Below, piece after piece: positions 16,381 to 18,605 of a stretch of 33,113 nucleotides of DNA. The notes below the pieces were generated by a model, which worked only from the letters and a program-made list of their open reading frames with translations, searched no databases and was not told the DNA's origin. Source of the DNA: a virus (Duplodnaviria > Heunggongvirae > Uroviricota > Caudoviricetes); the IMG/VR virus record IMGVR_UViG_2529292715_000006; one strand, written 5' to 3'. Each line of letters begins with the position of its first letter. The first letter of the stretch is position 1. A program made the translations under genes and the position numbers.

Positions 16381-16875
16381 ATGGCTGGAACGGCGGGGCG
16401 TTCCGGGCGTCGCCCTAAGCCAACGGCGCGCAAGGCGCTGGCCGGAAACCCCGGCAAGCGAGCCCTGAACAAAGATGAACCTGTTTTTACGCCCATCAAA
16501 GGTGTTGAGCCACCGGAGTGGTTCGCTGAAGAAGAGCTTCCTCTCGCCACGATCATGTGGCAACTGACAACCAAAGAACTCTGCGGTCAGGGCCTGCTGT
16601 GCGTGACTGACCTTGCGGTGCTTGAGCGGTGGTGTGTGGCCTATGAGTTCTGGCGGCGTGCCGTGAAAAATATTGCCAGACAGGGCAACACCATCACCGG
16701 TGCAATGGGCGGTATGGTCAAAAATCCGGAGCTGACCGCCAAAAAAGAACAGGAGTCCGAGATGAGCAGCACGGGGGCAATGCTCGGACTCGACCCCAGT
16801 AGCCGCCAGCGTCTGATTGGCCTGGCGGGGCAGAAGAAAGCCACTAACCCGTTTCTGAAAATCATCGAGTCATGA
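16381..16875 (+). CDS. terS: Terminase small subunit
   Basis: ATG 16381 with AGGAG 8 nt upstream (track start 16372 is GTG); basic N-terminus; stop overlaps the terL ATG (ATGA). Confidence 0.8.
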
Positions 16876-18605
16876 GCCGGAAATCTTACCCCAACGTAAA
16901 TGCTGCCAATCAGTATGCCCGTGATGTCGTGCGCGGAAAGATTGTGGCCTGCCAGTTTGTGATTCAGGCCTGCCAGCGCCATCTTGATGACCTGATGGCG
17001 GAAAAAAGTAAGTCGTTTCGTTACCGCTTCGACAAGGAGCTGGCTGAACGGGCCGCGAAATTTATTCAGCTGTTGCCACACACCAAGGGGGAGTGGGCAT
17101 TCAAGAGGATGCCCATCACGCTGGAGCCGTGGCAGCTCTTTGTGATCTGCTGTGCGTTTGGCTGGGTCAATAAAGGGTCCCGGCTGCGCCGCTTCCGGGA
17201 GGTGTATACCGAAATCCCCCGTAAGAACGGCAAATCGGCAATCTCTGCCGGTGTTGCCCTGTATTGTTTTGCCTGTGATAACGAGTTTGGCGCGGAAGTG
17301 TATTCCGGTGCCACGACAGAGAAACAGACGTGGGAAGTCTTTCGCCCGGCGCGACTGATGTGTAAACGCACACCCATGCTGACGGAAGCGTTCGGGATTG
17401 AGGTTAACGCCTCAAACATGAACCGTCCGGAGGATGGGGCGCGGTTTGAACCGCTGATTGGTAACCCCGGTGATGGTTCATCACCCCACTGTGCGGTGGT
17501 GGATGAATATCACGAGCACGCCACAGATGCGCTTTACACCACGATGCTTACCGGGATGGGGGCGCGACGTCAGCCACTGATGTGGGCTATCACTACCGCC
17601 GGGTACAACATTGAGGGGCCGTGCTACGACAAACGGCGGGAAGTCATCGAGATGCTCAACGGTTCGGTACCCAACGATGAACTGTTCGGGATTATCTATA
17701 CCGTTGATGAAGGTGACGACTGGACCGACCCGCAGGTGCTGGAAAAAGCCAATCCAAATATTGGCGTGTCGGTTTATCGCGAATTTTTGTTAAGTCAGCA
17801 GCAGCGTGCGAAAAATAACGCCCGTCTGGCAAACGTCTTTAAAACAAAACACCTCAATATCTGGGTGTCGGCGCGTTCGGCGTATTTCAACCTGGTGAGC
17901 TGGCAGAGCTGCGAGGATAAATCACTGACCCTTGAGCAGTTCGAGGGGCAGCCGTGCATTCTGGCCTTTGACCTGGCGCGTAAGCTGGATATGAACAGCA
18001 TGGCGCGACTTTATACCCGCGAGATTGACGGTAAAACGCATTACTACAGTGTGGCCCCGCGTTTCTGGGTACCGTATGACACGGTGTACAGCGTCGAGAA
18101 AAATGAAGATCGACGGACAGCCGAACGCTTTCAGAAATGGGTGGAAATGGGCGTTCTGACCGTTACCGATGGTGCGGAGGTGGATTATCACTACATCCTC
18201 GAGGAGGCCAAAGCGGCGAACAAAATCAGTCCGGTCAGTGAGTCACCCATCGACCCCTTCGGGGCGACCGGGTTGTCACATGACCTTGCTGATGAAGACC
18301 TGAACCCCATCACTATCATTCAGAACTACACCAACATGTCCGACCCGATGAAAGAGCTGGAAGCGGCAATTGAATCGGGGCGCTTTCATCATGATGGCAA
18401 TCCCATCATGACCTAGTGTATCGGCAACGTGGTCGGCAAAACCATTCCGGGTAACGATGATGTGGTGAAGCCCGTCAAAGAGCAGGCGGAAAACAAAATT
18501 GACGGTGCAGTTGCGCTGATTATGGCGGTTGGCAGAGCCATGCTGTACGAGAAAGAAGACACGCTGTCTGACCACATTGAGTCCTATGGGATCCGCTCGC
18601 TTTAA
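16872..18605 (+). pseudogene. terL: Terminase large subunit interrupted by an in-frame amber codon (TAG at 18414-18416)
   Basis: ORF 16872-18416 ends ...HHDGNPIMT*; the same frame continues without further stops as [62 protein letters not shown] to 18605. Confidence 0.85.

What the first reader, a model, noticed from the sequence alone, without database searches (positions are those of the whole stretch)
16872..18605. In-frame amber codon inside the large terminase gene
terL reads through 514 codons and stops at TAG (18414-18416), yet the same frame continues for 62 more protein-like codons (CIGNVVGK...[15 protein letters not shown]...) to a TAA at 18603-18605. The interrupting codon sits where a Trp (TGG) would be expected from the flanking sequence, so a single G-to-A change is the likely cause. 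The phage is either packaging-defective (cryptic) or depends on an amber-suppressor host.
Basis: seen in the sequence. Interest (0 to 1): 0.6.

Follow-up and report, generated by a model that had tools for sequence, protein, structure and literature searches.

The report
Nonsense mutation in prophage terminase gene
A single G-to-A change has put a stop codon into the DNA-packaging enzyme gene of an SfV/e14-like prophage, cutting off part of its DNA-cutting active site. This is an ordinary case of a resident prophage decaying into a defective one.

Summary
terL (16872-18605, +) is interrupted at codon 515 by TAG (18414-18416), and the frame stays open for 62 more codons to TAA. All relatives examined read TGG (Trp) there and encode a 577-aa protein: 80 of 80 IMG/VR relatives, phages SfI and ST64B, and two close E. 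coli prophages. No complete E. coli genome among 1,199 matching records carries the TAG-containing 61-mer.

The change is not a read error. It recurs in an independent read-level assembly (Logan SRR059931, 100% identical) and in a distinct sister prophage contig (IMG/VR 2537561620).

Alignment to the HK97 TerL crystal structure shows what the stop removes: the nuclease beta-hairpin, the active-site Lys (K536) and the third catalytic Asp (D544).

Recoding is excluded. The window has no tRNA, this is its only in-frame stop, and TAG ends three other genes normally.

The prophage carries further damage: IS1 inside yfdR, a possible 1-nt frameshift in baseplate gene V, and seven lineage-private substitutions from HNH to portal that all change amino acids.

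The best reading is a packaging-defective, decaying prophage. A suppressor host cannot be tested from this window. Interest is low.

The parts
16872..18605 (+). Complete terL reading frame (577 codons in relatives), here a pseudogene interrupted at codon 515
   Evidence: It is 96-99.8% identical to annotated 1,734-nt 'terminase large subunit' genes of E. coli prophages and phages SfI, SfII, SfIV and SfV, and 80% identical to ST64B. Pfam PF03354 covers residues 86-256 and PF20441 covers 268-558.
16872..18416 (+). The ORF as actually encoded: 514 codons plus TAG. It keeps the whole ATPase domain (Walker A PRKNGKS at about 116-122, Walker B D211-E212) and nuclease residues D367 and D461
   Evidence: mapped from HK97 D153/E154, D302 and D388.
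18414..18416 (+). Amber codon TAG, equivalent to Trp515 (TGG) in all relatives. The G-to-A change is at 18415
18417..18605 (+). Orphaned C-terminal 62 codons plus TAA. They contain the nuclease beta-hairpin, K536 (18477-18479), catalytic D544 (18501-18503, in KIDGAVAL) and the C-terminal helix
   Evidence: One search aligns this stretch to 6z6d_A. One search gives HK97 K463 and D471, with the chain numbered +10. There are no differences from the nearest intact allele (L001) downstream of 18415.
18189..18191 (+). Second private change in terL, R440H (CGC>CAC). It is present in the window and the Logan contig but not in the sister contig, so it arose after the amber
17328..17328 (+). Lineage-private A153T (GCG>ACG), next to Q152, which aligns with the HK97 'glutamate switch' Q92. 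The Ala is conserved as far as HK97
16381..16875 (+). terS (P27-family small terminase), intact
15905..16255 (+). HNH endonuclease, packaging partner of HK97-type terminases. It is full length but carries private A108E (16227)
18799..20040 (+). Portal gene, full length, with lineage-private G133S (19195) and T156A (19264)
1777..2544 (-). IS1 (768 bp, InsA/InsB) inserted in early gene yfdR, flanked by a 9-bp target duplication AACTGGGGG
30632..31179 (+). Baseplate assembly protein V gene with a 1-nt deletion in a G run (GGG at 30761-30763 against GGGG in relatives), which is a frameshift. It could be real or a homopolymer error
   Evidence: The sister contig has GGGG. The frameshifted product is not on record in Logan.

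Best explanation
A spontaneous G-to-A transition changed Trp515 (TGG) of the prophage large terminase to an amber stop. In an ordinary non-suppressor host, translation ends there. The 514-residue product keeps the packaging ATPase domain and two of the three nuclease aspartates. It lacks the nuclease beta-hairpin, the active-site lysine K536, the third catalytic aspartate D544 and the C-terminal helix. Such a protein should be unable to cut concatemeric DNA at cos, and its RNase H-like nuclease domain probably does not fold properly. The prophage therefore cannot make DNA-filled infectious heads and is a defective (cryptic) prophage inherited vertically. Shown here: the mutation, its uniqueness to one lineage, its presence in independent assemblies, and which residues are lost. 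Inferred: loss of packaging activity, and relaxed selection since the event.
For: (1) All relatives examined have TGG and 577 aa, and no complete E. coli genome has the TAG-containing 61-mer.
(2) The TAG is in the Logan assembly of run SRR059931, which is 100% identical over 5,079 nt. It is also in a sister IMG/VR contig that differs from the window by SNPs and indels elsewhere. It is therefore inherited, not a read error.
(3) HK97 TerL (6z6d, E=1.7e-24) aligns across the site. The published catalytic residues D302, D388, D471 and K463 map to D367, D461, D544 and K536, and the last two lie beyond the stop.
(4) The window has no tRNA gene. terL is the only gene with an in-frame stop among about 50 mapped genes. 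TAG ends ymfT, Rz1 and ymfR normally.
(5) Other lesions are present: IS1 in yfdR and a frameshift in gpV.
(6) All seven lineage-private substitutions in the HNH-terL-portal stretch change amino acids. The family background in terL is 391 synonymous to 106 non-synonymous variants. R440H arose after the amber.
(7) In-frame stops in bacterial genomes are most frequent in phage and transposon genes, and the authors of that survey suggest many of these are pseudogenes (PMC7918605).
Against: The host genome is not in the window, so a chromosomal amber suppressor cannot be excluded. All other late genes are still full length and 97-100% identical to relatives, except possibly gpV, so the inactivation is recent and the prophage is far from eroded. 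Over the tail region the private substitutions are not strongly skewed (14 non-synonymous to 16 synonymous), so the relaxed-selection signal is only suggestive. The window and the Logan contig may derive from the same reads.
Confidence: 0.85

Rival explanations
1. The phage is functional because its host carries an amber-suppressor tRNA (for example a glnV/supE-type allele). An amino acid is then inserted at codon 515 and full-length TerL is made, as with a conditional-lethal amber mutant.
For: Position 515 is Met in HK97 TerL, so it is not universally invariant and might tolerate Gln or Tyr. Almost all other late genes are intact. Amber mutants of HK97-type phages are routinely grown on suppressor strains; for example, HK97 amC2 is propagated on LE392 and used on 594 to make proheads (PMC9410871).
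Against: There is no suppressor tRNA in the window. TAG ends three other prophage genes. The lineage-private changes in terL besides the stop are all non-synonymous (D56E, A153T, R440H) with no synonymous changes, which is not what maintained function predicts. Efficient amber suppressors are uncommon in natural isolates (my own knowledge). The host chromosome was not available to test.
Confidence: 0.05
2. Sequencing or assembly error: the true base at 18415 is G.
For: The window differs from the sister contig by homopolymer-length differences. At least one of the assemblies therefore contains errors of the 454 homopolymer type.
Against: The change is a substitution, not a homopolymer-length change. 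It is present in the Logan k-mer assembly built from the raw reads of SRR059931. It is also present in a sister contig that differs at 12 SNPs and several indels, so that contig comes from another dataset or isolate.
Confidence: 0.03
3. The truncated TerL is still useful. One version is that the ATPase/translocase works with the adjacent HNH endonuclease supplying DNA cleavage. Another is that the fragment has been co-opted, for example as a dominant-negative protein that poisons the terminase of superinfecting related phages.
For: The complete ATPase domain is retained. An HNH endonuclease gene lies just upstream. In HK97 the HNH protein gp74 stimulates cos cleavage, and in vitro TerL plus procapsids suffice to package linear DNA (PMC9410871).
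Against: The allele is confined to one shallow lineage, against 80 of 80 intact relatives. The HNH gene and terL both carry private amino-acid changes. Losing about 60 residues of an RNase H-like core probably destabilises the domain. In HK97, gp74 is reported to stimulate cleavage by TerL, not to replace it.
Confidence: 0.05
4. Natural gene boundary or genetic-code recoding: the terminase ends at 514 and the 62 codons are another gene, or TAG is read as an amino acid in this phage.
For: None beyond the open frame itself. A GTG-started 58-codon ORF (18429-18605) exists mechanically.
Against: All homologs are continuous across the site. The Pfam and HK97 alignments span it. There is only one in-frame TAG in about 50 genes, no tRNA, and TAG is used as a terminator.
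Confidence: 0.01

Closest known systems
Large terminases of the SfV/SfI/SfII/SfIV/ST64B/phiP27 prophage group (paired with P27-family small terminases), e.g. WP_000088150.1
   Same: They are 96-99.8% identical in nucleotide sequence (80% for ST64B) with identical gene order: HNH, terS, terL, ymfR, portal, protease, capsid.
   Different: Those genes are uninterrupted 577-codon ORFs with TGG at codon 515. This copy has TAG plus three private amino-acid changes.
HK97 TerL (gp2), crystal structure 6Z6D
   Same: It has the same two-domain architecture. Walker A and B, Q152 (the Q92 switch equivalent) and nuclease residues D367, D461, D544 and K536 all align. It also has an HNH partner gene.
   Different: It is only distantly related in sequence (E=1.7e-24). 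The window copy cannot encode the last catalytic Asp in one polypeptide.
Defective prophages of E. coli such as e14 (ymfN terminase remnant) and CPS-53
   Same: Many genes here carry e14 or CPS-53 names (ymfK, ymfL, ymfT, ymfR, ymfQ, yfdN to yfdT) in RefSeq annotation. The ST64B record notes similarity of its terminase to YmfN. All are prophages disabled by mutation and IS insertion. That e14 is defective is my own knowledge.
   Different: e14 and CPS-53 are heavily deleted remnants. This prophage is nearly complete within this window and disabled by point lesions, so it is at an early stage of decay.
Laboratory amber mutants of phage packaging genes (e.g. HK97 amC2, lambda Aam)
   Same: Both have an amber codon in a head or packaging gene. 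HK97 amC2 yields empty proheads on the host 594 (PMC9410871). That 594 is a non-suppressor host is my own knowledge.
   Different: Those mutants are selected and maintained on suppressor strains. Here the mutation sits in a resident prophage of an unidentified host, with no sign of a suppressor.
Stop-codon-recoded phages (TAG read as an amino acid, with phage-encoded suppressor tRNAs)
   Same: Both have an in-frame TAG in a late gene.
   Different: Recoded phages have many in-frame TAGs and encode a suppressor tRNA (my own knowledge). Here there is one TAG, no tRNA, and TAG terminates other genes.

Membership tests
Terminase large subunit (TerL, HK97/P27 type) | N-terminal ASCE ATPase domain with Walker A and B | tested here: met
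   PF03354 scores 89.4 bits against a cutoff of 23.7. PRKNGKS and D211-E212 align to the HK97 Walker motifs.
Terminase large subunit (TerL, HK97/P27 type) | C-terminal RNase H-like nuclease domain with three catalytic acidic residues in one polypeptide | tested here: not met
   The restored frame matches PF20441 at 118 bits. The encoded 514-aa product ends before K536 and D544. The locus is therefore a TerL pseudogene, not an intact TerL.
Terminase large subunit (TerL, HK97/P27 type) | Position between the small terminase and portal genes | tested here: met
Defective (cryptic) prophage | Inactivating lesion in an essential morphogenetic gene | tested here: met
   W515* in terL.
Defective (cryptic) prophage | Additional decay (IS insertion, frameshifts, relaxed selection) | tested here: inconclusive
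   IS1 in yfdR is certain. The gpV frameshift may be a homopolymer error. Private substitutions are 7 of 7 non-synonymous near terL but 14 to 16 in the tail genes.
Defective (cryptic) prophage | No infectious particles on induction | not testable with these tools
   This needs an induction or plaque assay.
Stop-codon-recoded phage | Many in-frame TAGs, a suppressor tRNA, and TAG not used as a terminator | tested here: not met
   There is one in-frame TAG, no tRNA, and three genes end in TAG.
Suppressor-dependent amber mutant | Host encodes an amber-suppressor tRNA | not testable with these tools
   The window lies entirely within the prophage, and host contigs could not be retrieved.

The most novel reading that the evidence does not exclude
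The amber allele is maintained rather than decaying. One possibility is that the natural host carries an amber suppressor, making phage production conditional. Another is that the nuclease-less TerL fragment (ATPase only) has been co-opted, for example as a dominant-negative inhibitor of packaging by superinfecting SfV-like phages.
Probability: 0.04. Interest if true: 0.4.

Novelty: already known. Interest (0 to 1): 0.08.

Why it matters
It matters little beyond annotation. The locus should be labelled a terL pseudogene and the prophage flagged as probably non-inducible into infectious particles. That is relevant if the strain is used for phage-release, transduction or serotype-conversion studies. 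It is a tidy example of an early stage of prophage decay: one nonsense mutation and one IS1 insertion, followed by amino-acid-changing drift. It does not touch any open question.

Tried and rejected
- I searched for the exact TAG-containing 34-mer in species-representative genomes and in metagenome contigs. Both gave no hits, so the source organism was not identified that way.
- A literature search for SRR059931 found nothing.
- A look-up of the frameshifted gpV product in the read-level assemblies found nothing. The gpV frameshift therefore remains unverified.
- The IS1/yfdR junction is absent from IMG/VR. This does not show whether the sister contig lacks the IS1 or simply does not extend that far.
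- I considered and rejected recoding, pyrrolysine and programmed readthrough. This is a single site, the window has no tRNA, and TAG is used as a terminator. My own knowledge adds that UAG followed by U is an efficient termination context in E. coli.
- I considered and rejected a separate downstream gene. No homolog splits here, and there is no Shine-Dalgarno sequence before the GTG at 18429.
- I did not run the large protein searches or structure prediction, because the HK97 crystal-structure alignment already answered the question.

Full report
**Observation.** Translating window 16872-18605 on the + strand gives 514 sense codons, TAG at 18414-18416, 62 further sense codons and TAA at 18603-18605.

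**What the gene is.**
- With Trp restored, the 577-aa product matches Pfam TerL_ATPase (residues 86-256) and TerL_nuclease (268-558, almost the whole profile) well above the gathering scores.
- The DNA is 96-99.8% identical to 1,734-nt 'terminase large subunit' genes in about 1,100 complete E. coli genomes. It is similarly close to phages SfI, SfII, SfIV, SfV and vB_EcoM-689R6, and 80% identical to ST64B.
- In every annotated relative examined, the gene is one ORF of 577 codons lying between a P27-family small terminase and ymfR/portal.
- The window as a whole is a nearly complete SfV/e14-like myovirus prophage. The closest full-length relative, in E. coli WS0115A, sits next to a tRNA-Thr gene downstream of proA.

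**Is Trp expected at the site?** Yes.
- L001-L004 all read ATGACC**TGG**TGT against the window's ATGACC**TAG**TGT.
- All 80 of the best IMG/VR relatives have TGG, and 79 of them encode an intact 577-aa ORF.
- A 61-nt probe across the site hit 1,199 complete E. coli genome records. None matched at 100%, and the best matched 60/61.

**Is it real?**
- The exact 514-aa product is on record from a Logan assembly of sequencing run SRR059931. That contig is 100% identical to window 14524-19602.
- The same TAG is in IMG/VR contig UViG_2537561620_000010.
- That contig is not a copy of the window. It has G instead of A at 18190 and two homopolymer-length differences.
- It also has an intact gpV and 11 SNPs plus 4 indels across 25908-32553.
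- The amber is therefore an inherited allele shared by at least two datasets, and it is a substitution rather than a homopolymer artefact.

**What is lost.**
- HK97 TerL (PDB 6Z6D) aligns to residues 112-556 with E=1.7e-24.
- The structure paper names D302, D388 and D471 as the nuclease catalytic centre. It also describes K463, which follows a conserved beta-hairpin and protrudes into the active site (PMC9410871).
- The deposited chain is numbered +10 relative to the paper. I checked this at all four residues in the alignment.
- These residues correspond to D367, D461, D544 and K536 here.
- The stop at 515 therefore removes the hairpin, K536, D544 (the D of KIDGAVAL, 18501-18503) and the C-terminal helix. 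The ATPase domain is left whole.
- Loss of cos cleavage, and probably of nuclease-domain folding, is inferred, not shown.

**Suppression or recoding.**
- The window contains no tRNA gene.
- Mapping about 50 annotated genes of the WS0115A prophage onto the window shows terL as the only one with an in-frame stop.
- TAG is the normal terminator of ymfT, Rz1 and ymfR.
- Code reassignment is therefore excluded.
- A host chromosomal suppressor cannot be tested, because the window lies entirely inside the prophage.

**Other signs of decay.**
- yfdR is split by a 768-bp IS1 (1777-2544) with InsA/InsB and a 9-bp target duplication AACTGGGGG.
- Baseplate gene V has GGG where relatives have GGGG (30761-30763), which shifts the frame.
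- The sister contig has GGGG, and I could not confirm the deletion at read level. It may be a sequencing error.
- In the 3.7 kb from HNH to the portal N-terminus, the substitutions private to this lineage, judged against 80 or more relatives, are as follows:

| Gene | Private changes |
|---|---|
| HNH | A108E |
| TerL | D56E, A153T, R440H, W515* |
| Portal | G133S, T156A |

- All seven change the protein and none is synonymous. Variation within the family in terL is 391 synonymous to 106 non-synonymous variants.
- R440H is absent from the sister contig, so it arose after the amber.
- A153T lies next to Q152, the equivalent of the HK97 glutamate-switch residue Q92, at an Ala conserved as far as HK97.
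- Over all covered regions the private changes are 21 non-synonymous to 16 synonymous. In the tail genes alone they are 14 to 16.
- The relaxed-selection signal is therefore suggestive rather than conclusive.

**Comparison with what is known.**
- Nonsense mutations in prophage genes are commonplace. A survey of in-frame stops in bacterial genomes found them most often in the phage and transposon category, and its authors suggest many of these are pseudogenes (PMC7918605, citing Bobay et al. 2014).
- One of the 80 relatives fetched here (L185) carries its own independent amber at Q538.
- The closest laboratory analogue is an amber packaging mutant such as HK97 amC2. That mutant is grown on LE392 and yields empty proheads on 594.
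- A speculative rival is that the ATPase-only fragment works with the adjacent HNH endonuclease or acts as a dominant-negative. The shallow distribution of the allele and the private changes in HNH and terL argue against it.

**Verdict.** This is a real TGG-to-TAG nonsense mutation that most likely makes an otherwise nearly complete SfV/e14-like prophage packaging-defective. It is ordinary prophage decay and of low interest.

Noticed in passing
window 1777-2544 (- strand): A complete 768-bp IS1 (InsA 2214-2489, InsB 1792-2295) is inserted in prophage early gene yfdR. It is flanked by a 9-bp target-site duplication AACTGGGGG.
   Followed up: yes
window 30761-30763 (gpV, 30632-31179): There is a 1-nt deletion in a G run relative to the closest E. 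coli homologs listed (all 552 nt against 551) and the sister contig. It splits baseplate protein V into 86-aa and 119-aa ORFs. It could be a second inactivating lesion or a homopolymer sequencing error.
   Followed up: partly
window 15902-19602: All seven lineage-private substitutions in HNH, terL and portal change amino acids, and four of them are G-to-A on the coding strand. This fits relaxed selection on the packaging and head genes after inactivation.
   Followed up: yes
window 12249-13580 (- strand): A 443-aa KAP-family P-loop NTPase is encoded on the opposite strand, between the Q antiterminator and the holin. It has weak similarity to the Qat anti-phage ATPase QatA (E=5.5e-9, far below the cutoff). 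It may be a defence-type moron and is conserved in WS0115A.
   Followed up: partly
L185 (IMGVR_UViG_2675903417_000002), terL codon 538: A relative's terL has an independent premature amber (CAG>TAG, Q538*), 23 codons downstream of this one. This shows that such knock-outs recur in this phage family.
   Followed up: partly
window 18276-18575 (- strand): A 99-aa antisense ORF overlaps the orphaned terL tail. The Logan annotation calls it a gene (no Pfam hit on record), probably only because the truncated terL leaves a gap. I did not check it against other databases.
   Followed up: no
window 28167-28186 vs L005 37494-38024: The WS0115A relative carries an extra 531-nt hypothetical gene between the tape-measure and DNA-circularization genes. 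The window lacks it.
   Followed up: no
window ~12942 and ~16335 vs L007: The sister contig has one base fewer in a T run inside the KAP NTPase gene and in an intergenic A run. These are homopolymer differences, which suggests that at least one assembly is 454-like in its error profile.
   Followed up: partly
protein cluster: The 90%-identity cluster holding this terminase contains abundant 498-aa variants (up to 169 contigs). Their length fits a start at Met80. It also contains several 635-aa proteins that NCBI names 'phage tail tape measure protein', which is an odd co-clustering or a naming error.
   Followed up: no
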